Shown: piece by piece, positions 15,282 through 38,322 of the stretch
How the letters are laid out: every line of letters begins with the position of its first letter
How positions within the stretch are numbered: position 1 is the first letter of the stretch
DNA from: an uncultured delta proteobacterium
Lineage (GTDB): Bacteria > Desulfobacterota > Desulfobacteria > Desulfobacterales > Desulfosalsimonadaceae
DNA length: 64,000 nt
Assembly (NCBI GenBank): GCA_963826785.1
Contig: CAWGYD010000004.1
Coordinates: forward strand, 64,001-128,000
Reading direction: 5' to 3'
Notes under the pieces: model-generated
What the model was told of the DNA's origin: nothing
Database searches by the model: none
Seen by the model: only the letters and a program-made list of their open reading frames with translations
Translations under genes and position numbers: made by a program

Positions 15282-16428
15282 ATGGCTTTTATATCTTCTG
15301 GTTATAATCCGGAAAAACCGATGGAGGACCGGATTACCGACATCGGTCCGAGAAGTTTTGAGGAGTTTTATCCTCCGGTCATCAAGAACAACAAGGGAAA
15401 ATGGTTGTACCATGAAATCCTGAAACCAGGGGTACTGGTCCATGTTTCCGAGACCGGCGAAGAAGTTTATACCGTAAGAGTGCGGCGGCGCCCGTCTGAT
15501 GAGCGTCACCCATATCCGTGAAATCTGCGAAATCGCGGACAAACACTGCGACGGGTATGTCCGGTTCACCACCCGTAACAACATCGAGTTCATGGTGGAC
15601 AGCAAGGACAAGGTCGACCCGCTGGTCAAGGACCTGGAAAGCCGCAAGTTTGACGGCGGCAGTTTCAAGTTCCCCGTGGGCGGCACCGGCGCCGGCATCA
15701 CCAACATCGTTCACACCCAGGGCTGGATTCACTGCCACACCCCGGCCACCGATGCTTCGGGTCCGGTGAAGGCGGCCATGGACGTGCTGTTCGAAGATTT
15801 CCAGAACATGAGAATGCCGGCCCACGTCCGGGTTTCCCTGGCCTGCTGCCTCAACATGTGCGGCGCGGTGCACTGCTCCGATATCGCCATCCTGGGATAT
15901 CACCGCAAACCGCCGATGGTCGACCATGCGTACCTGGACAACATGTGTGAAATTCCGCTGGCCATCGCCGCATGCCCCACCGCAGCCATCAAGCCCAAGA
16001 AGGTCGACGTGGACGGCAAGCAGAAGAACAGCGTGGAAATCAACAGCGAACGGTGCATGTTCTGCGGTAACTGCTACACCATGTGCCCGGCGCTTCCGCT
16101 TTCGGACAAGGAAGGCGACGGCATCGTCATCATGGTCGGCGGCAAGGTTTCCAACCGGATTTCGGCACCGAAATTTTCCAAGGTGGCGGTGGCGTTTATC
16201 CCCAACGAAACCCCGAGATGGCCGAAAACCACCGACACCATCAAGCACATCGTGGAAGCCTACGCCAATGATGCCCGGAAATACGAGCGTCTGGGTGATT
16301 GGGCCGAACGGATCGGCTGGGAAAGATTCTTCGACAAGACCAATCTGGAATTTACCCATCACCTGATCGATGACTTCCGTGATCCGGCCTATTATACCTG
16401 GCGCCAGACCACCAACTTCAAATTCTAA
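15282..16428 (+). CDS. dsrB: Dissimilatory sulfite reductase beta subunit, interrupted by a +1 frameshift at ~15480
   Basis: [10 protein letters not shown]...RITDIGP joins [10 protein letters not shown]...HTQGWIHCH...CCLNMCG...[12 protein letters not shown] if one G is removed from AGA-G-TGC-GGC-GGC-GCC; the repaired protein is 381 aa. Confidence 0.95.
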
Positions 16429-18408: not shown

Positions 18409-18921
18409 TTATTTTTCCGGTTTGGGGTGGCATTCGGTGCACTTGACCGGCCCCTTTTTCATTTCCTTGTGGCATCCCACGCAGTTTTCATGGATGGCGC
18501 CGTAATAATATTCCAATTGAATCGACTTCCAGTCTTCCGGAGAAACACCCGGCTCCCGTTTGGGTTTTCCGGGTTCGCTGTGGCAGTCCGTGCATTTTTC
18601 CACCGGATCACCGGGTTTGAGGCCGGTCAGCGGTTTACCGTCTGCATCGTGGTGGCAGTCCCCGCAACCAAGGCCGTACCCCTCGGGCTTTGGGGCATAG
18701 TGTTTTTCATGATGGAACGTCACAATCCCCATTTTGTGCTGTTCGAACATGTCCGTGTTTTTCATCTCAATGACCGCGCTCGGCAGGGCGGCGTCGCCGG
18801 ATGCGGCGGCGGATTCTCCGGCGGGCTTCTGGCCTTCTTCTTGCGCGTTGATGGCCGCTGCAAAACAGAACAGAGCAAAAACTGCAAGCGCCAGCAGTAA
18901 GAGTTTCCGTTTTGATGTCAT
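18409..18921 (-). CDS. Periplasmic tetraheme cytochrome c3 (class III)
   Basis: Signal peptide, VTFHHEKH, heme motifs CGDCHH, CTDCH, CVGCH, CTECH. Confidence 0.93.
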   Translation of the reverse strand: MTSKRKLLLLALAVFALFCFAAAINAQEEGQKPAGESAAASGDAALPSAVIEMKNTDMFEQHKMGIVTFHHEKHYAPKPEGYGLGCGDCHHDADGKPLTGLKPGDPVEKCTDCHSEPGKPKREPGVSPEDWKSIQLEYYYGAIHENCVGCHKEMKKGPVKCTECHPKPEK

Positions 18922-23471: not shown

Positions 23472-24845
23472 TCAGGGCTGTTTCATGCCGATTCGCGTTT
23501 CCTGGTGATTGACCATGGCAACATCGACCAAGTAATCGAACCCGGGATCCTTATCGAGGGTATGGCATCGGGTGCAGGTGTTTTCTGTGACCGGCCGCAA
23601 AAGCTTGCTGTCCGGGTCTTTTACATGATGGGCGGCGGGGCCGTGGCAAGCTTCGCACTGGACCCCGGCCATCCATCCGCTTCCGGCGTCTGGATTAAAA
23701 ATGCTGCCGGGATCGGCATTTAGAAGACCCGTGGCATGGCAGGCAAGACAGTCCGGGTCAAACCCCCTCCTGCGGGCTGTCAGGCTCTCATGGGCGCGGG
23801 CATGGAGGCTTTCCGCCCAGGACCGGTTGATCTCCGGATGGCAGGACCTGCAGGCGCCGCTGCCCGCAAAGGCTTCCCCGCCTCTTGAGGAAATCAGGGC
23901 CTTCATATCGGTTTGGTCCTGCGGGCCAAGGAAGGCTTCTTGTTTTTGATTGATCCAGAGTGCAAACAGCCTCTTGATTTCAGGGTCTTCTTCGATTTGC
24001 CCCACCGTGGCCCGGAGGTGCCGGGAAGCGGAGAAGCCGGGTGCGCCGGCAGCAGCGCCGAGATAATCGGTATAGGCGACGTACATGCCCAGGCTGTTGT
24101 TGGCTACGATCGGGGGGGATGCCCCCATGTCGTCGACCGGAGCATCGGATGCGGCCAGGCCATCCACGATCATGCCGATGCCGGGGCAGTTTTCAATGAG
24201 AGTTGTCCGGTAGGCGGCATCCCCATAAACAATGACCACCATCAGGTCGTCACCGTTTCTGCGCCTGATTTCCCGGAGTGCCGGGATGGGGTCTGCGAAG
24301 ACAATCTTCGGGTCGGCGGATATGGCCAGCGCCGGGTCCATAACCGATGTCACCACCACCGGCGTACGGCCGCTGTTTTTCATAAACCGCGCAGAAGCCT
24401 TGAATCCGGGTATATTTGCTGAAACCAGCGGGACCTTGTAAAACTGCCGAAGTGTATCGGCGGCGTTTTTAAGATCATCCGGTCCGACGCCGATGACCTC
24501 CACACCGGAGGCGGCCAGGGCGGACAGGATAAAGTCGTTTTCCGCCGAAGCGGTATCCGGCGCCGGGTTGAAGTTGTCCCCGGCATTGATGACCAGGGTC
24601 CGGTCCGGACCGAATTCCCTTTTTAATGTGTCGATCAGTGTTTTCCGGCGGGAAAGCCCCCCCGCCTGGTTCTTCTGTCAGCCGCACGGTTCGGCGTTGC
24701 CGTTGAGCCCGCCGCCGTAAATGATCCGCAGAGCGGCGCCCTGCGCGGCATCGCCCCGCATGTCGCCGTCCGCCAGGGATGCCGCCGACGTCAGAAGGAT
24801 GGCCAGCAGCGTAAACGCAGCGCGCAGGTGGGCTTGATATGACAA
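23472..24845 (-). CDS. Probable selenoprotein: secreted UshA-like (CGU) domain fused to a tetraheme cytochrome c (c554-like)
   Basis: GAGGAG RBS, TTG start at 24845, signal peptide, LRIIYGGGLNGNAEPCG-UGA(24680..24678)-QKNQAGGLSRR...INAGDNF...VSANI, all in frame with ORF 23472..24503 (CRSCH, CLACH, CEACH, CTRCH); SECIS-like hairpin follows; 457 aa. Confidence 0.85.
24647..24666 (-). other. Candidate bacterial SECIS hairpin
   Basis: Begins 11 nt after the UGA: GGCGGGGG-GGCU-UUCCCGCC, with a G-initiated apical loop. Confidence 0.65.
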
Positions 24846-25034
24846 AGACCGATGCTCCTCTTTATTTCGTATTCAGATGCGCCGGCGCCGTCGTACAGAT
24901 CATCATCTGGCGCCTTTTACTTACTGCTTTTTGCATCCGGTTGAATGTAAAGCCAAATTCAGGGGATCAACAATCGTCGTGCCGGCGTATCGAATTTCGA
25001 CGCGCCCGGGTCGATTGTCGTGTGAATACTAAAT

Positions 25035-25049
25035 CCAATTTCCGTGCCA
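25035..25049 (-). promoter_or_regulatory. Sigma54-type -24/-12 promoter candidate toward the selenoprotein cytochrome
   Basis: TGGCACG-GAAA-TTGG, one mismatch to TGGCACG-N4-TTGC. Confidence 0.5.
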
Positions 25050-25294: not shown

Positions 25295-26698
25295 ATGGAA
25301 GATCGTTGTCTGCAGGATATTTTCGATAGCCGGTTTGCGCGTTTACTGCTCGATGCAATGGCAGAAGGCGTCTTCACGCTGGATGTGCAGGGGCGGATCA
25401 CCTCCTGGAATCCCTCCATGGAAAAACTGACCGGCTACAGTGCCGGAGAGGCCATCGGCCAAACCTGCAAGACCCTGAAATTCACCCGTTGCCTGAACCG
25501 GACATGTCCCGAGAACATCAATGAATGCACCATCTACAGCCGGGGTTCGGTGGAATCGGCCGAATGCCAGATGCGCCACCGGGACGGCCATATCGTTCCG
25601 GTGATCAAGAATGCACGGGTGGTGAAGGATGAACTGGGCGATGACATCGGCGTGGTGGAGACGGTCACCGATATATCGGAACTGATGGATGTTCGCCGCC
25701 AGGTGGAAGAAGCCGCCCTGAAACTGGCCGAAACCCATCAATTTGAAAACATCATCGGTAAAAGCGCCGTCATGCGCAGGGTGTTCGATTCTGTCCGGGC
25801 CGCAGCCAAAAGCGATGCCACCGTGCTGATCCAGGGGGAAAGCGGCACCGGAAAGGAACTGGTGGCCGGGGCCATCCATTTTCATAGCGACCGGTCCCGA
25901 GGCCCCCTCATCCCCGTCAACTGCAGTGCGCTTTCGGAATCGATTCTGGAAAGCGAACTGTTCGGACATGTGCGGGGGGCGTTTACCGGCGCTCACCGGG
26001 ATCGGAAAGGCCGGTTCGAGGAATCCCATGGCGGGACCATCTTTCTGGATGAAATCGGCGAGATCAGCCCCTATATACAGCTCAAGCTTTTGCGGGCCAT
26101 CCAGGAGCGGCAGATCGAGCGGGTGGGAGATTCCAACTCAATGGATCTCGATTTTCGTGTGATCGCCGCCACCAACAAGGACCTGTATGGATTGGTCCGG
26201 CAGGGTCTGTTCAGGGAGGATCTGTATTATCGGCTCAAGGTGTTTCCCATCCATATGCCACCGCTGATGGCGCGAAAAGACGACATTCCGCTGCTGGCCA
26301 CCCATTTTGTAAACCGGTTCAATCGTAAAACCGGCCGGCGGATCAAGGGGGTGGCCAAGGATGCCATGCGGCTGCTGATGGCGCATGCGTGGCCCGGAAA
26401 TGTCCGGGAACTCGAAAATGCCATCGAGCATGCATTCGTGCTGTGCGAAGAAGAAATTATCAAGGCGGCGGCACTGCCGGTGGAAATCCGCAAAATTCCC
26501 GCCGCCCCTCTGCTGGGGCATGGCCCCGTGGTAACGGGGGGCATCCGGGCGGGTTCGCCGAACCGGACGGATCTTCTGGAACTGCTGGATGCATGCGGAT
26601 GGAACAAGGCCGAGGTGGGCCGCCGGCTCGGCATCAGCCGGACTTCAGTATGGAAGTACATGAAAAAACATGATATTCCGTTAAAAAGACCGGATTAG
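25295..26698 (+). CDS. PAS-domain sigma54-dependent transcriptional activator
   Basis: N-terminal PAS with 4 clustered Cys, GESGTGKE, GAFTGA, FLDEIG, WPGNVREL, C-terminal Fis-type HTH. Confidence 0.95.
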   Translation: MEDRCLQDIFDSRFARLLLDAMAEGVFTLDVQGRITSWNPSMEKLTGYSAGEAIGQTCKTLKFTRCLNRTCPENINECTIYSRGSVESAECQMRHRDGHIVPVIKNARVVKDELGDDIGVVETVTDISELMDVRRQVEEAALKLAETHQFENIIGKSAVMRRVFDSVRAAAKSDATVLIQGESGTGKELVAGAIHFHSDRSRGPLIPVNCSALSESILESELFGHVRGAFTGAHRDRKGRFEESHGGTIFLDEIGEISPYIQLKLLRAIQERQIERVGDSNSMDLDFRVIAATNKDLYGLVRQGLFREDLYYRLKVFPIHMPPLMARKDDIPLLATHFVNRFNRKTGRRIKGVAKDAMRLLMAHAWPGNVRELENAIEHAFVLCEEEIIKAAALPVEIRKIPAAPLLGHGPVVTGGIRAGSPNRTDLLELLDACGWNKAEVGRRLGISRTSVWKYMKKHDIPLKRPD

Positions 26699-27152: not shown

Positions 27153-28034
27153 ATGCACATCATGAGCTTAAAGAGAAAATTATCAGCCGGTGATTTTGTA
27201 GTCATGGCCGAGATGAACACGCCCAAGGGCGTGGATATATCGGAGCTGGTGACCAATGCGCGGCGCCTCAAGGGCCGGGTGGATGCGGTGGTGATTCCGG
27301 ACATGGACAACGGTGTCATGCGCATGAGTGCCCTGGCCGGCGGCACGCTGATGCGCCAGCAAGGGTTTGATACGGTCATGCATGTCTATGGCCGGGACAA
27401 GAACCGCATTGCCCTCCAGGGCGACCTGCTCGCCGCCTATGTCATGGGCATTGAAAACCTGCTGGTGGTCCGGGGTGAAGAGATGGCCGCCGGGGATCAC
27501 CGGGAGGCCAAACCCGTGGACGATCTGGATGAGCAGGCGATCTTCGGCATGATCCGCTCCCTGAAGGAGGGGGTTGACATGGCTGGTTTCGAACTCAAGG
27601 GAATCCCGGATTTTACCGTGGGATGCGCGCTGCTGCCGTTCACAGATGATGCCGGAATGGAATCCGAAATCGAGTCGATCCGGAAGAAAAAGGAGGCCGG
27701 CGCGCAGTTCGTCATCATTCCGCCGATCTTCGACATGGCCCTCTGCACCCGGCTGGTAAAGCGGCTGAAGGAGCTGGATATCGCCGTCATCGCCACGGTT
27801 TTTCTGCTGAAAAATGTCGGCATGGCCCGGTACCTTTCCATCAATGATCCGGCTTCCAGGGTCTCCGAAGAAATGATTACCCGGATCCGGAAGGCTTCCG
27901 ACCGGGAAGCGGAATGCATCCGCATGGCAGGCGAAATGGCACTTGAACTGAAAAAATCGGCTGATGGCATCAAGCTGGTGACGCTGGGCTGGGAACACCG
28001 GCTGCCGGCCATCCTTGAAAAAGCGGGATTGTAG
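27153..28034 (+). CDS. Methylenetetrahydrofolate reductase-like protein (divergent MetF paralog)
   Basis: AEMNTPKG, MRMSALA, RDKNRIALQGDL; RGE in place of GD and IIPP in place of the TQ motif. Confidence 0.8.
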   Translation: MHIMSLKRKLSAGDFVVMAEMNTPKGVDISELVTNARRLKGRVDAVVIPDMDNGVMRMSALAGGTLMRQQGFDTVMHVYGRDKNRIALQGDLLAAYVMGIENLLVVRGEEMAAGDHREAKPVDDLDEQAIFGMIRSLKEGVDMAGFELKGIPDFTVGCALLPFTDDAGMESEIESIRKKKEAGAQFVIIPPIFDMALCTRLVKRLKELDIAVIATVFLLKNVGMARYLSINDPASRVSEEMITRIRKASDREAECIRMAGEMALELKKSADGIKLVTLGWEHRLPAILEKAGL

Positions 28035-28102
28035 CTTAAGACAGCCTTATTCACGACATGGTGCGGAAACTCAATAACCGCAAGCATATAAATAGGTAAC
28101 AC

Positions 28103-31100
28103 ATGGAAGAAAATAGCGATTACAACGGCCACCGGCCTGAAAATAAAAAAATCCTGGTGATCGGCGGCGGCATGGGAGGGATCCGGGCGGCTCTGGACCT
28201 TGCCGAGTCCCGCCGGGACGTGGTCCTGATCGATCAGTCATACGCCATCGGCGGACTGATGACCCAGCTGGACCGCACCTTTCCCACCAATAACTGCGAT
28301 TTATGCACCGTATCACCGCATCTGTCCGAAAGCGGCCGCCAGCTGCACATCGACATCAAACCGATGACCACGGTGGAACGCGTCGAAGGCGAAGCGGGTG
28401 ATTTTACGGTCACCCTGAAAACCGCTCCCCGCTATATCGATCCGGAAAAATGCACGGCATGCGGTGAATGCGCGGAGAAATTTCCTCAATGGGTGCGGTT
28501 TACCCCCGGTCTCGATCCCCGCGCGCCCACCTGCATGCGTTATCCCCAGGCCACGCCTTACGCCTATTCCATCGACATGGAAAAAGTCGAAGATGTCGCG
28601 GCGCTGCAGGCGACCTGCCGGGCCGGTGCCATTCTTCCCGAAGATACGGAAAAATGTCAAACCCTGACAGCGGCCTCCATTATCCTCGCCACCGGTGCGG
28701 ACCTGTTCGATTACTCCGTGCTGGACAACTTCGGGGGCGGGAAATTCGCCAACATCGTCAGCGGACTTGAATATGAACGGATCATGTCGGCCTCCGGACC
28801 GACCAAGGGTGAACTGGTCCGGCCCTCGGATGGCAAACGGCCCCAGAAAGTCGCCTGGATTCAATGCGTGGGCTCACGCGGCATCAACCGCGCCGATGTT
28901 CCCTACTGCTCCAGCGTCTGCTGCATGTATGCGCTCAAAGAGGCCATGGTCACCAAGGAACGGTTTGCCGACGACATCGAGGCCACTATTTTTTACATGG
29001 ACATGCGGACATTCGGGAAGGATTACGAGCGCTACCTGGAGCGGGCCAAAGGCGAATACAACGTCCGCCTGATCCGGAGCCGGCCCCATACGGTGCTCGA
29101 GCACCCCGAAACCAAAAATCTGTCCATCAATTACATCACCGACGATTCCATTGCGCACCTTACCGAAGAATTCGATATGGTGGTGCTCTCCACCGGATTC
29201 AGGGTACCGCAGCGGACACTGGATCTGGCGGCCCGCCTGGGCATCGAAGTCAATGTCCACGGATTCGCCCAGACCGGAAATTTTTCTCCGGTGGCCACTT
29301 CGCGTCCGGGAATTTATGTCTGCGGTGTCTATGAAAGCCCCAAGGATATTCCCGAAACCATGGTCCAGGCCAGTGCCGCCGCCTGTGTCGCCGGAGCGGA
29401 TCTGGAAGTTCCCGCCTCTATCCAGGCCGAAGAAGATGACTTTACGCCCGAGCGGGACGTCTCCGGCGAACCGAGCCGCATCGGGGTGTTCATCTGCGAC
29501 TGCGGCGAGGAGATCGGCGGTCTCATTGCGGTGCCGTCTCTGGTAAAATTCGCCCAAACCCTTCCAGACGTGGTGGCGGTCGAGGCCGTGGGGCATGGCT
29601 GCAGCAGCGCCTCCATGGACCGGATCGAGCAGGTGATCAAAGAGCGCGGCCTCAACCGGGTGGTGATCGGCGGATGTTCACCCCGGACCCATGAGACCAA
29701 ATTCCAGGATCTGTTGCGCCGGGCGGGACTGAACAAGTACCTGGTCGAAATCGTCAATCTTCGGGACCAGGATGCCTGGGCCCACATCAACCGGCCGGCC
29801 GATGCCGAAAACAAGGCGAAAAAATTGCTCAGCATGGGTATATCCGCGGTGCAGAAAAGCCATCCGCTTACCGAGCACACCCTGCCCGTCAGCCAGAACG
29901 TGCTGGTGGTGGGCGGTGGTATCACGGGGATGAATGCCGCACTGCAGCTGGCCGGACAGGGTTTCCGGGTCTATCTGCTGGAGCGCGCCGCGAAATTGGG
30001 CGGTCTTGCCGGAACCATCCGCCGGACCCTGGAGGGTGACGACGTGTCGGCCTATGTCGCGGACCTGATCAAACGAACCGAGAAAGAGGAACGCATCCAG
30101 GTGCTGACCCAGGCCATCATCGTGGATCATTCCGGCATGCCCGGCCTGTTTACCACCGGCATCCAGATGGGGCCGCGCATGCATTACATGCAGATCAAGC
30201 ACGGGGTCACCATCATGGCCACCGGCGCACTTCCCCGCCGGCCCGACGAATACCTGCTGGGAAAAGACAAACGGGTCATGACCCAGCTGGACCTCGACGG
30301 CATCATCGAAGATGACCCGGACCGGATTTCATCCCTGAAAACCATCGTGATGATCCAGTGCGTGGGTTCCCGGCAGCCGGACAATCCCAACTGTTCGCGG
30401 GTCTGCTGCCAGACGGCCATTAAAAATGCTCTGCGGATCAAGGCCATCAATCCCGAGGCGGAGATCTTCGTGCTGTATCGGGATATGCGCACCTATGGCT
30501 TTTCGGAGGATTATTACCGGGAGGCCCGGAAACAGGACGTGAAATTCGTCCGGTACGGGGTGGAGAACAAGCCGAAGGTAAATGCCGGAGCCGATGGGCT
30601 GTCCGTTTTGTTCAATGATCCCATCCTGGGCATGGATATCGAGGTTTCCGCCGACTGCGTGGCCCTGAGCACCGGGTTTGTGGCCGATGAGGAAACCACC
30701 GAGGATCTGGCCATCATGTTCCACCTGTCCCGGTCCGAGGACAACTATTACCTGGAAGATCATATCAAGCTGCGGCCCATGGACATGGCGGTCCGGGGAT
30801 TCTTTATCGCGGGAACGGCACATGCGCCCAAAAATATGCGGGAAAGCATCACCCAGGCGCAGGCGGCTGCCGGCCGGGCACAGACCCTGCTGGCCCAGAA
30901 GGTCATCAATGTGGGAGCGGTCACCGCCAGGGTGGACTCCACCAAATGCGCCTCCTGCCTCATCTGTGTGCGCGCCTGTCCGTTTGATGTGCCGTATATC
31001 AATGCCGAAGGCTACTCCGAGATCGATCCGGCCAAGTGCCAGGGATGCGGCATCTGCGCCGCGGATTGCCCGGCCAAGGCCATTCAGCTGATGAAATTTG

Positions 31101-31153
31101 AGGATGATCAGATCATGGCCAAGCTCGACGGCCTGTTTGAAAGGATGAATTAA
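28103..31153 (+). CDS. hdrA: Double-length heterodisulfide reductase subunit A-like flavo/Fe-S protein
   Basis: Two FAD motifs (VIGGGMGG, VVGGGITG), DRTFPTNNCDLC, two QCVGSR...CS-x-VCC clusters, C-terminal 2x[4Fe-4S] (CASCLIC, CQGCGIC). Confidence 0.9.
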   Translation: MEENSDYNGHRPENKKILVIGGGMGGIRAALDLAESRRDVVLIDQSYAIGGLMTQLDRTFPTNNCDLCTVSPHLSESGRQLHIDIKPMTTVERVEGEAGDFTVTLKTAPRYIDPEKCTACGECAEKFPQWVRFTPGLDPRAPTCMRYPQATPYAYSIDMEKVEDVAALQATCRAGAILPEDTEKCQTLTAASIILATGADLFDYSVLDNFGGGKFANIVSGLEYERIMSASGPTKGELVRPSDGKRPQKVAWIQCVGSRGINRADVPYCSSVCCMYALKEAMVTKERFADDIEATIFYMDMRTFGKDYERYLERAKGEYNVRLIRSRPHTVLEHPETKNLSINYITDDSIAHLTEEFDMVVLSTGFRVPQRTLDLAARLGIEVNVHGFAQTGNFSPVATSRPGIYVCGVYESPKDIPETMVQASAAACVAGADLEVPASIQAEEDDFTPERDVSGEPSRIGVFICDCGEEIGGLIAVPSLVKFAQTLPDVVAVEAVGHGCSSASMDRIEQVIKERGLNRVVIGGCSPRTHETKFQDLLRRAGLNKYLVEIVNLRDQDAWAHINRPADAENKAKKLLSMGISAVQKSHPLTEHTLPVSQNVLVVGGGITGMNAALQLAGQGFRVYLLERAAKLGGLAGTIRRTLEGDDVSAYVADLIKRTEKEERIQVLTQAIIVDHSGMPGLFTTGIQMGPRMHYMQIKHGVTIMATGALPRRPDEYLLGKDKRVMTQLDLDGIIEDDPDRISSLKTIVMIQCVGSRQPDNPNCSRVCCQTAIKNALRIKAINPEAEIFVLYRDMRTYGFSEDYYREARKQDVKFVRYGVENKPKVNAGADGLSVLFNDPILGMDIEVSADCVALSTGFVADEETTEDLAIMFHLSRSEDNYYLEDHIKLRPMDMAVRGFFIAGTAHAPKNMRESITQAQAAAGRAQTLLAQKVINVGAVTARVDSTKCASCLICVRACPFDVPYINAEGYSEIDPAKCQGCGICAADCPAKAIQLMKFEDDQIMAKLDGLFERMN

Positions 31154-31593
31154 TGGACGCATTCGAACCCGAAATCGTGGCATTCTGCTGCCATTATTGT
31201 GCATATACCGCGGCGGACATGGCCGGCAGTCAGCGGCTGTCGTATCCGCCCAATGTGAAAATTATCCGGGTCCCCTGCACCGGGAAAGTGGATGCCATTC
31301 ATATCATGAAGGCGCTGCAGAAAGGGGCGGACGGGGTATACGTGGCCGGCTGCCTGGAAGGCGACTGCCACTTCAAGACCGGCAATATCCGCGCAGCCAG
31401 CCGCGTGCGTCAGGTGCAGGCAATCCTGTCGCGGATCGGCTGGGAGCCGGAGCGGGTGGAAATGATCACCATGTCGGCGGGGATGGGGGAGCGATTCGCC
31501 CGGACCGCAGAAGAATTTACGGAAAAAATCCGCCAACTCGGCCCCAACCCGATCGGTATCCCTGCCGGAGAGAAGCGGAAGGCCGCGTGTTAA
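31153..31593 (+). CDS. mvhD: MvhD/FlxD-type [2Fe-2S] subunit
   Basis: FCCHYCAYTAAD, IRVPCTG, GADGV-x-VAGC...CHF; TAATG overlap with hdrA. Confidence 0.93.
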   Translation: MDAFEPEIVAFCCHYCAYTAADMAGSQRLSYPPNVKIIRVPCTGKVDAIHIMKALQKGADGVYVAGCLEGDCHFKTGNIRAASRVRQVQAILSRIGWEPERVEMITMSAGMGERFARTAEEFTEKIRQLGPNPIGIPAGEKRKAAC

Positions 31594-31624
31594 CAAAAGA
31601 ATGAATTAACGGGAGATATAAACA

Positions 31625-32293
31625 ATGATAACGGCTGAACAAAAACCCATGGATGAAATCATCGCCTGCATCGCGCCCCTGGATCGCATCCTGCTGGTCG
31701 GGTGCAACGAATGCGTGAGCGTATGCGCCGCCGGCGGCCGCAAGGAGGTCGGATTGCTTTCTTCCGCTCTGCAGCTGTATTTTTTGAAGCAGGGCAAGAC
31801 CATCGACATCAAGGAGATCACTCTGGAGCGCCAGTGCGACCCGGAATACGTGGAAGAACTCGTCAGCATGGTGGATACGGCCGACGCCGTCCTGTCCATG
31901 GCCTGCGGCTGCGGCGTACAGACCATCGCCGCCCGGTACAAGGAAAAACCGGTCTTTCCGGCGGTCAATACCAAATTCATGGGCGCTTCCGAACGCCAGG
32001 GCGTCTGGTCGGAACGGTGCCAGGGATGCGGGGATTGCGTTCTGGGCATCACCGGCGGCATCTGCCCGATCGCCCGCTGCTCCAAAAGCTTGCTGAACGG
32101 CCCCTGCGGCGGTTCAACCAAGGGAAAATGCGAGATCGACTCCAACGTGGACTGTGCCTGGCAGCTCATCTGGGACCGGCTCAAGGCGCTGGGACTGGAA
32201 AAGCGGTATGAAGAGGTCATGGAAGCCAAGGACTGGCGGACCAGCCGGGATGGCGGACCGCGGAAAATTATCAGAGAGGATCTGGCATCATGA
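31625..32293 (+). CDS. metV: MetV (MTHFR C-terminal-domain Fe-S/Zn subunit)
   Basis: GCNECVSVC, RQCD, ACGCG, ERCQGCGDC...CPIARCSKSLLNGPCGG...CAW; ATGA overlap with metF. Confidence 0.9.
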   Translation: MITAEQKPMDEIIACIAPLDRILLVGCNECVSVCAAGGRKEVGLLSSALQLYFLKQGKTIDIKEITLERQCDPEYVEELVSMVDTADAVLSMACGCGVQTIAARYKEKPVFPAVNTKFMGASERQGVWSERCQGCGDCVLGITGGICPIARCSKSLLNGPCGGSTKGKCEIDSNVDCAWQLIWDRLKALGLEKRYEEVMEAKDWRTSRDGGPRKIIREDLAS

Positions 32294-33213
32294 AAACGGA
32301 AAGCAGACTGGAAAAGGTATTTAAATCGGGAAACCTGGCGGTCACCTCCGAGTGCGGCCCCCCCCGGGGCGCTGCCCCCGAAAAAGTCAGAGAAAAGGCG
32401 GAGATGCTCAAGGGCTATGTCGACGGCATCAACGTGACCGACAACCAGACCGCCATGGTGCGGATGTCGAGCACAGCCGCCTGCATCATGATCAAGCAGA
32501 TGGGCCTCGATCCCATCCTGCAGATGGTTTCCCGGGACCGGAACCGGCTGGCCATGCAGAGCGACATCATCGGGGTGTATTCCTTCGGAATCAATACCAT
32601 GCTCTGCCTGTCCGGGGATCATCCCCATTTCGGGGACCATCCCATGGCCAAGAACGTCTATGATCTTGATTCCGTGCAGATGATCCAGATGGTGAAAAAG
32701 ATGCGGGACGAAGGGAAGTTCCAGGGGGGCGCCGATATCCTCAATCCCCCGAAGATGTTCATCGGCGCAGCGGCCAACCCGTTTGCCGATCCTTTCGAAC
32801 TCCGGGTGGCGCGGCTGGCCAAGAAGGTCAAGGCAGGCGTCGATTTCATCCAGACCCAGTGCGTCTACAATCTCGATAAATTCGAGACGTGGATGGAAGG
32901 GGTCTGCGACAGAGGGCTCCACGAAAAGGTCTATATCATGCCGGGCATTACCCCGATGAAGACCGTGGGCATGGCCCGGTACATGAAAAACAAGGTTCCG
33001 GGAATGGATGTTCCCGATGCCATGGTCAAGCGGATGGCGGGGGTCCCCAAAGAAAAACAGGCCGAGGAGGGAATCAAGATCGCCGTCGAGTCTATCCAGC
33101 GTCTACGGGAGGTCAAGGGCGTGGCCGGATTCCATATCATGGCCATCGAATGGGAACAGATCGTCCCCGAGATCATAGAAAAAGCTGGTCTTTATCCCCG
33201 GCCGGAAGTATAA
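32290..33213 (+). CDS. metF: Methylenetetrahydrofolate reductase
   Basis: TSECGPPRG, NVTDNQTAMVRMSS, RDRNRLA, LSGDH, FIQTQ, GFHIMAIEWE. Confidence 0.93.
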   Translation: MKTESRLEKVFKSGNLAVTSECGPPRGAAPEKVREKAEMLKGYVDGINVTDNQTAMVRMSSTAACIMIKQMGLDPILQMVSRDRNRLAMQSDIIGVYSFGINTMLCLSGDHPHFGDHPMAKNVYDLDSVQMIQMVKKMRDEGKFQGGADILNPPKMFIGAAANPFADPFELRVARLAKKVKAGVDFIQTQCVYNLDKFETWMEGVCDRGLHEKVYIMPGITPMKTVGMARYMKNKVPGMDVPDAMVKRMAGVPKEKQAEEGIKIAVESIQRLREVKGVAGFHIMAIEWEQIVPEIIEKAGLYPRPEV

Positions 33214-38306: not shown

Positions 38307-38322
38307 TGGCACGCCCTTTGCT
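38307..38322 (+). promoter_or_regulatory. Sigma54 promoter of amtB
   Basis: TGGCACG-CCCT-TTGCT, exact GG-N10-GC spacing, preceded by a very AT-rich tract. Confidence 0.85.

What the first reader, a model, noticed from the sequence alone, without database searches (positions are those of the whole stretch)
23472..24845. Hidden selenoprotein: UshA-like CGU domain fused to a tetraheme cytochrome c
Seen: the 343-aa ORF-track entry extends 114 codons upstream through a single in-frame UGA (24680..24678) to a TTG start with a GAGGAG RBS and a signal peptide. The context is GNAEPCG-U-QKNQAGGLSRR, a SECIS-like hairpin starts 11 nt after the UGA, and four CxxCH motifs lie at the C-terminus. The 5'-nucleotidase metal ligands are degenerate (GLN for DxH, GPDD for GNHE). 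Known: UshA-like CxU selenoproteins occur in deltaproteobacteria with no assigned function. Inference: a periplasmic Cys/Sec redox site on a non-catalytic phosphoesterase fold wired to a heme chain, i.e. an uncharacterised periplasmic redox enzyme that standard annotation would truncate.
Basis: partly seen in the sequence, partly recalled or inferred. Interest (0 to 1): 0.8.

Follow-up and report, generated by a model that had tools for sequence, protein, structure and literature searches.

The report
Heme-wired UshA-like selenoprotein, known family
This is a real gene for an exported selenocysteine protein that joins a disabled nucleotidase fold to four hemes; its family is already catalogued but untested, and the evidence here points to a role in making or breaking disulfide bonds in cell-envelope proteins.

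Summary
TTG start, GAGGAG, signal-like N-terminus, one in-frame TGA (codon 56, PCG-U) and four CxxCH give a 457-aa protein. Four fused orthologs keep TGA and the hairpin; a SECIS-like hairpin follows 28 of 28 TGA sites against 44 of 98 Cys sites. The assembly has tRNA-Sec and other selenoprotein genes; selB and selD were not found and selA is frameshifted (87.8% complete, indel-prone).

The fusion is not new. NCBIfam NF041198 already spans both domains. This protein scores 182 (cut-off 275): a divergent member that has lost seven of eight UshA metal/catalytic positions.

Added here: covariation over 213 homologs puts the Cys54-Gly-Sec56 loop against the heme-2 motif, the heme without a conserved distal His. 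Relatives are fused to DsbA-like domains (8 proteins, more than one origin) and lie beside genes for envelope and secreted cysteine enzymes.

Best reading (0.45): a periplasmic thiol-disulfide oxidoreductase passing electrons between protein cysteines and hemes, direction unknown. It does not replace VKOR by distribution (16 of 46 carriers against 12 of 55 others). No activity or distance was measured.

The parts
23472..24845 (-). Gene for a 457-aa UshA-like CxU selenoprotein with a tetraheme c554-like domain (TTG start, TGA stop)
   Evidence: full-length orthologs
24855..24860 (-). Ribosome-binding site GAGGAG, 9 nt before TTG
   Evidence: G030 and G028 have AGGAG/GAGG-like sites before a TTG 56-57 codons upstream of the TGA
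24771..24845 (-). Probable signal peptide, residues 1-25 (cleavage site inferred)
   Evidence: hydropathy; similar hydrophobic N-termini in four orthologs
23931..24734 (-). 5'-nucleotidase-type metallophosphoesterase domain and linker helix (about residues 38-305), metal site lost
   Evidence: fold match Z 27.6, rmsd 2.7, 263 aligned to 3ivd_A; Z 26.9 to UshA 1ush_A; ligand alignment
24678..24686 (-). Cys54-Gly55-Sec56; TGA at 24680-24678
   Evidence: C54 in 94 of 94 and C/U56 in 93 of 94 rows that cover the site
24645..24669 (-). SECIS-like hairpin, apical loop GGCU at 24658-24655
23505..23882 (-). Cytochrome c554-like domain (about residues 322-447): four CxxCH and three conserved distal His (348, 407, 447)
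   Evidence: PF13435 E 1.7e-12; 1bvb_A Z 10.4, rmsd 2.9, 129 aligned; conservation
23838..23852 (-). Heme 1 motif CRSCH (332-336)
23736..23750 (-). Heme 2 motif CLACH (366-370); inferred heme without a distal His, and the segment that covaries with the CxU loop
23643..23657 (-). Heme 3 motif CEACH (397-401)
23562..23576 (-). Heme 4 motif CTRCH (424-428)
25035..25049 (-). Sigma-54-like -24/-12 site TGGCACGGAAATTGG, about 190 nt upstream (consensus recalled)
   Evidence: 2 matches in the window against 0.16 expected, the other before an ammonium-transporter-like gene (name recalled); similar site upstream of G028 and L213 orthologs, not found for 7 of the 10 Sec-clade loci checked
25295..26698 (+). 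Divergent PAS / sigma-54 activator, probable regulator
   Evidence: a 54%-identical gene is divergent from the ortholog in L216

Best explanation
An exported, soluble thiol-disulfide oxidoreductase. Shown by sequence and models: the phosphoesterase fold has lost its metal site and carries a Cys54-Gly-Sec56 pair on the loop above that site, and a c554-like tetraheme domain takes the place of the nucleotide-binding domain. Supported by covariation: that loop packs against the heme-2 segment. Inferred: Sec56 attacks a disulfide (or accepts one from a dithiol) on a partner protein, Cys54 resolves it to a selenenylsulfide, and heme 2 and the heme chain move the two electrons one at a time to or from periplasmic cytochromes. 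Inferred clients: DsbA/thioredoxin-like proteins and cysteine-rich or cysteine-catalytic envelope proteins; for this clade the transglutaminase-like surface-protein cluster. The direction is open: a CPHC DsbA fusion suggests oxidation; thioredoxin plus CcdA-like neighbours and the low-potential cytochrome pool of sulfate reducers (recalled) suggest reduction.
For: CxC/CxU and four hemes are near-invariant while metal ligands vary; D-E/D-H-H is kept in 47 of 213 full-length rows and lost here. Two-domain model pLDDT 88.5, pTM 0.89. Top inter-domain coupling N59-A371 (z 7.7, in the top ten of 11 of 12 subsamples), with L64-T372, N59-L374 and T98-D363/D365. Loop 50-66 x heme-2 segment scores 5.08 against 2.2-3.5 for five other cytochrome segments; 0 of 62 random and 0 of 62 kin re-pairings reach it. 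[quoted passage not shown] DsbA-like fusions: 7 proteins by Pfam (P0048, P0078, P0100, P0146, P0150, P0170, P0198) plus P0143 by BLAST, among the 278 proteins then held; one origin rejected, p-AU 0.0001. Thioredoxin, redoxin or MsrAB neighbours in L097, L139, L140, L112; thioredoxin plus CcdA-like gene in L084. Transglutaminase-elicitor-like gene directly upstream in L113, L162, L214, L219 and within about 2.7 kb in 7 of 10 stand-alone loci; L162 and L219 are the sister group of this protein's clade. G000 has that cluster without its own copy, and this gene is its only CxU/CxC member found. A CGC peptide has E0' -0.167 V and isomerase activity (10.64898/2026.01.27.701630, passages).
Against: No activity and no Sec-to-iron distance were obtained. 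DsbA fusions are a small minority, and five of the eight have a single Cys in place of CxxC. No anti-correlation with VKOR: 16 of 46 carriers against 12 of 55 others in a Planctomycetota sample, Fisher p 0.18; VKOR is in 3 of the 5 close genomes, G000 included. The commonest neighbour (34 loci) is a DUF1573 Ig-like protein with no redox motif. The five close orthologs share no neighbourhood and none lies beside a Dsb gene. Stand-alone copies do without hemes. Covariation rests on about 206 effective sequences and also gives unsupported pairs of similar score (V117-D433 z 7.3). In CD73 the same loop carries cysteines too (alignments), which are structural there (recalled).
Confidence: 0.45

Rival explanations
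1. A small-molecule chalcogen reductase or oxidase that works like MccSep: Cys54 ligates or approaches heme 2, Sec56 attacks polysulfide, selenite, thiosulfate or a peroxide, and the hemes deliver electrons.
For: MccSep is a periplasmic multiheme selenoenzyme whose His/Cys-ligated heme 2 and nearby Sec cleave S-S bonds (PMC13510729, results and discussion read). Here four hemes have only three conserved distal His and the loop covaries with the heme-2 segment. The host carries dsrAB and the gene looks like a sigma-54-regulated single gene.
Against: Most carriers in the pattern scan are Planctomycetota and Poribacteria with Cys (97 of 118 TGY), not known sulfur respirers; in MccSep U325C nearly abolishes activity. 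No membrane anchor, porin or sulfur-respiration gene recurs among neighbours. The coupled residues flank the CxxCH rather than show axial ligation, and K432 of the conserved D/S-P-x-F loop covaries with L367 and T372, as a cap on the open face would. NF040886 score 13.4 against 250.
Confidence: 0.2
2. Cys54 and Sec56 bind a soft metal or metalloid (Cu(I) beside heme 2 as in MccA, recalled; or As/Hg), making a bimetallic site or a periplasmic detoxification or redox-sensing protein.
For: The CxU loop sits over the former dimetal site. Heme 2 of the c554/MccA core is the active site. Stand-alone copies lie in clusters with ArsR-like, DGC and thioredoxin genes (L084, L088).
Against: Only 2 of 10 stand-alone loci and none of the five close orthologs have that context. 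No conserved third ligand remains in this clade (positions 90/122/207/230 read D-P-Y-L, N-V-H-L, E-P-H-L).
Confidence: 0.12
3. A redox-gated hydrolase or ligand-binding protein: the phosphoesterase pocket still binds or cleaves a phosphate or sulfate ester, and CxU and hemes only switch it.
For: 47 of 213 full-length homologs keep D-E/D-H-H, and these four positions covary strongly; three of six stand-alone copies aligned read D-D-H-H and one D-E-H-H. SoxB shows that the fold can act on sulfur substrates (fold match Z 26.8).
Against: This protein keeps only D90 of eight UshA positions. His at the catalytic H117 position is not among the seven commonest residues in 213 rows. The substrate-binding domain is replaced by the cytochrome.
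Confidence: 0.1
4. In this organism the UGA is not read through (Sec machinery decayed), so the gene gives no full-length product.
For: selB and selD not found; selA is split by a one-base frameshift.
Against: Assembly 87.8% complete with other indels, including dsrB in this window and 2 of 27 test genes. The gene after selB in three relatives has no match in G000 either. tRNA-Sec is present. Five HdrA, one MvhD and four other in-frame-TGA contexts are intact. selB is in 48 of 57 other family genomes.
Confidence: 0.05

Closest known systems
NCBIfam NF041198 UshA_like_PCGU, 'UshA-like (seleno)protein' (= COG0737 UshA-like, CxU, in PMC2398784, PMC9312934, PMC13188914)
   Same: PCGU motif, nucleotidase-like N-domain and the tetraheme C-domain, which the 519-position model covers; best NCBIfam match, E 1.6e-53; no function given in the passages seen
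   Different: 182 bits against a cut-off of 275; a long-branch clade (branch 0.95) that has lost nearly all metal ligands
NCBIfam NF049981 UshA-like (seleno)protein family 2
   Same: CxU on a UshA-like domain; weak match to residues 39-115
   Different: 30 bits against 140; a 262-position model, too short to hold this protein's two domains
E. coli UshA / CD73 5'-nucleotidases and SoxB
   Same: N-domain fold and linker helix, Z 26-28
   Different: Seven of eight metal or catalytic positions lost or gapped; substrate domain replaced by a cytochrome; CxU inserted after motif I
Cytochrome c554 of Nitrosomonas (1bvb) and the c554/OcwA/MccA heme core
   Same: Fold (Z 10.4, rmsd 2.9, 129 aligned), first three CxxCH and the first distal His align; four proximal and three distal His
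   Different: Shorter, fused to a CxU domain; NF043010 33.6 against 400
MccSep / ExtKL polysulfide reductase (PMC13510729)
   Same: Periplasmic multiheme selenoprotein; Sec carried on a second domain near heme 2
   Different: Five hemes, C-terminal Ig-like Sec domain, Sec and Cys far apart in sequence; no significant sequence match (E 0.65)
DsbB / VKOR and Erv-type thiol oxidases (functional analogues, recalled)
   Same: A cysteine pair that couples protein disulfide chemistry to an electron chain; family members fused to DsbA-like domains
   Different: Soluble and heme-based, not a quinone- or flavin-binding protein; co-occurs with VKOR

Membership tests
NF041198 UshA-like (seleno)protein | Score at or above the curated cut-off of 275 bits | tested here: not met
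   182.1 bits with C for U. 0 of 201 genomes of the order pass it; homologs P0090 (371.9) and P0133 (307.4) do. So a divergent relative, not a member by cut-off.
NF041198 UshA-like (seleno)protein | PCG-U/C motif after motif I | tested here: met
   P53-C54-G55-U56
NF041198 UshA-like (seleno)protein | Nucleotidase-like domain followed by the tetraheme domain, as the model spans | tested here: met
   matches at model positions 17-236 and 360-518 in one reading frame
Bacterial selenoprotein gene | In-frame UGA aligned with Cys in homologs and with UGA in other genomes | tested here: met
   21 TGA and 97 TGY among 118 GTDB pattern hits; TGA in four close orthologs
Bacterial selenoprotein gene | SECIS-like hairpin with a G-starting apical loop shortly after the UGA (rule recalled) | tested here: met
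   loop GGCU at 19 nt; 28 of 28 TGA against 44 of 98 TGY contexts (kin not independent)
Bacterial selenoprotein gene | selA, selB, selC and selD in the genome | tested here: inconclusive
   selC yes; selA frameshifted; selB and selD not found in an 87.8% complete assembly; both present in G030, G019, G028
Bacterial selenoprotein gene | Selenium in the protein | not testable with these tools
   needs 75Se labelling or mass spectrometry
NF049981 UshA-like family 2 | Score at or above 140 bits | tested here: not met
   30.3 bits
5'-nucleotidase (UshA/CD73/SoxB) | Calcineurin-like metallophosphoesterase fold | tested here: met
   Z 27.6 / 26.9 / 26.8
5'-nucleotidase (UshA/CD73/SoxB) | Dimetal ligands and catalytic His (UshA D41, H43, D84, N116, H117, H217, H252, Q254; numbering recalled, residues checked on the fetched ushA) | tested here: not met
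   only D84 kept
Cytochrome c554 | c554 fold with four CxxCH and three distal His | tested here: met
Cytochrome c554 | NF043010 cut-off 400 | tested here: not met
   33.6 bits
Cytochrome c554 | Five-coordinate heme 2 | tested here: inconclusive
   no fourth conserved His, Met or Cys in the domain; which heme is open is inferred from c554; needs spectra
MccSep / ExtKL (NF040886) | Five hemes, C-terminal Sec domain, score at or above 250 | tested here: not met
   four hemes, N-terminal Sec, 13.4 bits
MccSep / ExtKL (NF040886) | Cys as distal ligand of heme 2 with Sec beside it | tested here: inconclusive
   covariation gives proximity to the heme-2 segment, not ligation
DsbB / VKOR (works-like claim) | Takes the place of DsbB or VKOR in genomes | tested here: not met
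   DsbB 1 of 50 and VKOR 10 of 50 carriers, but DsbB is 1 of 101 in the whole phylum sample and VKOR is no rarer in carriers
DsbB / VKOR (works-like claim) | Disulfide exchange with a DsbA-like partner | not testable with these tools
   fusion evidence only

The most novel reading that the evidence does not exclude
The NF041198 superfamily is a further kind of periplasmic disulfide machine: a soluble, heme-wired counterpart of DsbB/VKOR (or of DsbD) built on a dead nucleotidase fold, in which a CxC/CxU pair trades disulfides with DsbA-like and cysteine-rich envelope proteins and passes electrons through heme 2 to cytochromes instead of quinones. It would serve many phyla in which DsbB is rare, and this gene would be its selenium form serving a transglutaminase-like surface-protein cluster in trans.
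Probability: 0.3. Interest if true: 0.8.

Novelty: new member of a known kind. Interest (0 to 1): 0.42.

Why it matters
As a gene it is an annotation fix: callers drop the signal peptide and the active site. As a family it is large (3,080 cluster representatives at E up to 1e-10, an unknown share matching on the cytochrome part only), catalogued since 2008 and, in the papers seen, without a function. The covariation result names the contact to test (CxU loop against heme 2), and the fusion and neighbour data name the substrates to try first. Cys forms from cultured organisms exist (Inmirania thermothiophila WP_123401539.1, Motiliproteus sp. WP_076719969.1), so it can be tested without Sec expression. 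If the Dsb-like reading holds, it would bear on how bacteria with little or no DsbB handle envelope disulfides.

Tried and rejected
Complex prediction of homolog P0198's CxC-heme module with its own DsbA domain: no answer, score 0.00, neither for nor against. A direct Sec-to-heme distance was not obtained: the fold tool gives no coordinates. Strict DsbB/VKOR replacement: not supported by distribution. Sequencing runs: no RNA holder listed; two small-share DNA runs gave four short pieces, none over the UGA. The search for related loci found nothing in genomes or viruses; no plasmid match for P0197. Rfam: no match. ESM Atlas returned only 'hypothetical' or c554-named clusters. A link to the nearby metF/hdrA/mvhD cluster was considered because G030 and L215 also lie by metF; the other orthologs do not, and the genes are convergent: rejected. 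A split form (stand-alone domain beside a separate c554-like gene) was not seen in the 10 stand-alone loci fetched. Pfam PF16683 missed the transglutaminase-like gene in G000; tblastn found it. Papers: searches found family listings only; (selenoprotein, Geobacter, nucleotidase, multiheme) and one search gave 0 papers; one search gave one unrelated review; PMC1976440 and PMC5029168 hold no 'UshA' in the main text. Haft and Tolstoy 2025 (PMC12013261) and PMC2806813 are not held; they, the NCBIfam comment text and unread supplements could already describe the fusion or a function.

Full report
Observation. The database record of this gene is the 343-aa truncation, and the next ten homologs cover only 74-84% of the query, as expected if callers stop at the same codon.

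Is the UGA selenocysteine? Among 60 relatives three have a full-length ortholog (G030, G019, G028; 39-52% identity, one TGA each); a fourth, G103, came from a search of the order. All four have TGA at the aligned codon and the same hairpin, and the 17 codons before it are conserved with many synonymous changes. Of the 80 with flanks, 74 continue in frame into four CxxCH; four run off their contig and two end early. A hairpin whose apical loop has G in its first two bases, 14-37 nt after the codon (rule recalled), is found in 28 of 28 distinct TGA contexts and 44 of 98 Cys contexts; mean z against synonymous recodings is -1.57 and 0.04 (relatives are not independent). Against plain shuffles the hairpin alone is only modest.

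Sec machinery. The assembly has tRNA-Sec and selA, split by a one-base shift in a G-rich run. selB and selD were not found. The assembly is 87.8% complete and has other indels: dsrB in this window and 2 of 27 test genes. The gene that follows selB in three relatives has no match in G000, selB is in 48 of 57 other genomes of the family, and G030, G019 and G028 have selB and selD. The genome holds in-frame TGA contexts that I recognise (recalled motifs) as five HdrA, MvhD, a rhodanese, a glutaredoxin, a HesB-like and a DsbA-like protein (the last confirmed as PF01323 with one TGA). Missing sequence is the likelier cause, but this check is not closed. Reads did not cover the codon.

What it is. 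The best NCBIfam match is NF041198, UshA-like (seleno)protein, 182 bits against a cut-off of 275. The model's last 160 positions match the cytochrome domain, and homologs P0090 and P0133 pass the cut-off in one stretch over positions 17-518. The fusion is therefore the family's own architecture. The family is listed as 'COG0737 UshA-like, CxU' in PMC2398784 and in two reviews, PMC9312934 and PMC13188914 (passages seen), with no function in those passages. Carriers include Planctomycetota, Poribacteria, Fibrobacterota, Nitrospirota, Acidobacteriota, Desulfobulbaceae and Gammaproteobacteria. The window protein belongs to a long-branch clade whose DNA-checked members all have TGA.

Anatomy. The model is confident (pLDDT 88.5, pTM 0.89). 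The N-domain is a 5'-nucleotidase fold (Z 27.6, rmsd 2.7, 263 aligned) and the C-domain matches c554 (Z 10.4, rmsd 2.9, 129 aligned). Against E. coli UshA only D84 of eight metal or catalytic positions is kept, and CxU sits in the loop just after motif I, over the old site. Across 213 full-length rows 47 keep D-E/D-H-H, so the metal site is optional, while C54 and C/U56 are in 94 and 93 of 94 rows. The cytochrome has four proximal and three conserved distal His (348, 407, 447). [quoted passage not shown]

Is the CxU wired to the hemes? No coordinates were available, so I used covariation. I had named heme 2 beforehand; the window limits were chosen after a first run. From 357 sequences, 213 full-length rows were kept; truncated and gappy rows were dropped. 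The method recovers the old metal cluster (D90, P122, Y207, L230), a useful control. The best inter-domain pair is N59-A371, three residues after Sec56 and one after heme 2's proximal His (z 7.7; top ten in 11 of 12 subsamples), with L64-T372, N59-L374 and T98-D363/D365. Among 578 blocks, those of the CxU loop and the motif-II loop with the heme-2 segment rank 2-5; an unrelated block ranks first on the full set but recurs in only 4 of 12 subsamples. The loop scores 5.08 with heme 2 and 2.2-3.5 with five other segments, and none of 62 random or 62 kin re-pairings reaches the observed values. This supports contact between the old active-site face and the heme-2 segment. It does not show axial ligation, and some pairs of similar score have no support.

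What does it act on? Eight of the 278 proteins then held carry a DsbA-like domain: one with CPHC, two with CSRC, five with a single Cys. They fall in three places on a 48-row tree, and one origin for the seven in the tree is rejected (p-AU 0.0001; I had seen a rough tree before naming the group). Five others are fused to DUF1573 Ig-like domains, and a DUF1573 gene lies beside 34 loci, mostly Planctomycetota. Other neighbours are O-antigen-ligase-like and glycosyltransferase genes, LptD, cysteine peptidases C25 and C39, thioredoxins, a redoxin and MsrAB (62 of 83 nearest-neighbour representatives were scanned, and some of the rest earlier). No respiratory membrane anchor or porin recurs. In this protein's own clade a transglutaminase-elicitor-like gene lies directly upstream in L113, L162, L214 and L219, and near 7 of 10 heme-less stand-alone copies. 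G000 has that cluster (C3:6350-9441, with the same small lipoprotein and glycosyltransferases) but no UshA-like gene in it, and the window gene is the only CxU/CxC member a six-frame profile search found. A CGC peptide has a PDI-like potential and isomerase activity (10.64898/2026.01.27.701630, passages).

Against this reading. The protein does not stand in for VKOR: 16 of 46 carriers and 12 of 55 other Planctomycetota genomes have it (carriers defined by an NF041198 hit at 1e-25, which may include true nucleotidases), and so does G000. DsbB is rare in carriers (1 of 50) but equally in the phylum (1 of 101). The five close orthologs share no neighbourhood. The rival with real precedent is MccSep, a periplasmic multiheme selenoenzyme that reduces polysulfide at a His/Cys heme 2 (PMC13510729; abstract, results and discussion read). 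It is unrelated in sequence, and its Sec-to-Cys change nearly kills activity, whereas Cys forms dominate here.

Regulation. A sigma-54-like site lies at 25049-25035 (2 matches in the window against 0.16 expected), with a divergent PAS/sigma-54 activator at 25295-26698. The activator is divergent from the ortholog in L216 too, and a similar site precedes those in G028 and L213; seven other Sec-clade loci checked show none.

Verdict. A real, mis-called selenoprotein gene; a divergent relative of a catalogued family, below its cut-off; the fusion is not new. Most likely a heme-wired periplasmic thiol-disulfide oxidoreductase (0.45), direction open. Earlier AI notes of this scan reached the same family and, in part, the DsbA link; I saw them after my own fusion results and do not count them as support. 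Searches found no functional study; Haft and Tolstoy 2025 was not available and no supplements were read.

Noticed in passing
window 15283-16428 (+): The dsrB-like gene is split by a one-base frameshift near 15490; probably an assembly indel, since the gene is essential for sulfate reduction (recalled).
   Followed up: partly
L002:2060-2085 (G000:C3, about 45840): selA is split by a one-base frameshift in a G-rich run; selB and selD are not in the assembly.
   Followed up: partly
G000:C3:2300-15700: Cluster of a transglutaminase-elicitor-like gene (829 aa), a 144-aa lipoprotein, CAP-like genes and glycosyltransferases. In relatives the same cluster carries a stand-alone or fused UshA-like selenoprotein; here it does not. 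Looks like an uncharacterised surface-layer cross-linking system.
   Followed up: partly
window 38307-38321 (+): The only other sigma-54-like site in the window precedes an ammonium-transporter-like gene.
   Followed up: no
window 18409-18921 (-): Class III cytochrome c (PF02085), 4.5 kb downstream on the same strand; a possible electron partner, not shown to be linked.
   Followed up: no
window 27153-33213 (+): metF-like, hdrA-like, mvhD-like, metV-like and metF-like cluster (names recalled from motifs); this HdrA and MvhD are Cys forms, while five other HdrA and one MvhD in the genome have TGA.
   Followed up: no
L084:1576-4925 and L088:6702-10931: Heme-less UshA-like copies inside clusters with ArsR-like, DGC, thioredoxin and CcdA-like genes; the L088 copy reads EPMGCC without a stop.
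   Followed up: partly
G424:C24, G459:C2, G442:C20: Tandem pairs of fused family genes, the first with one TGA and the second without.
   Followed up: no
L096:2115-7212: In a Planctomycetota genome the Cys form and its DUF1573 neighbour follow a hydrazine synthase alpha gene; not so in L151, so perhaps gene order only.
   Followed up: no
G042:C48, G050:C3, G059:C13 and others: Many genomes of the order encode a stand-alone c554-like cytochrome of about 150-200 codons matching only the C-terminal part of NF041198.
   Followed up: no
proteins P0044, P0069, P0073, P0077, P0095, P0124, P0135, P0147: A group of family members with a shared N-terminal extension of up to about 490 residues, almost without Pfam match (one weak Peptidase_M61_N hit).
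   Followed up: no
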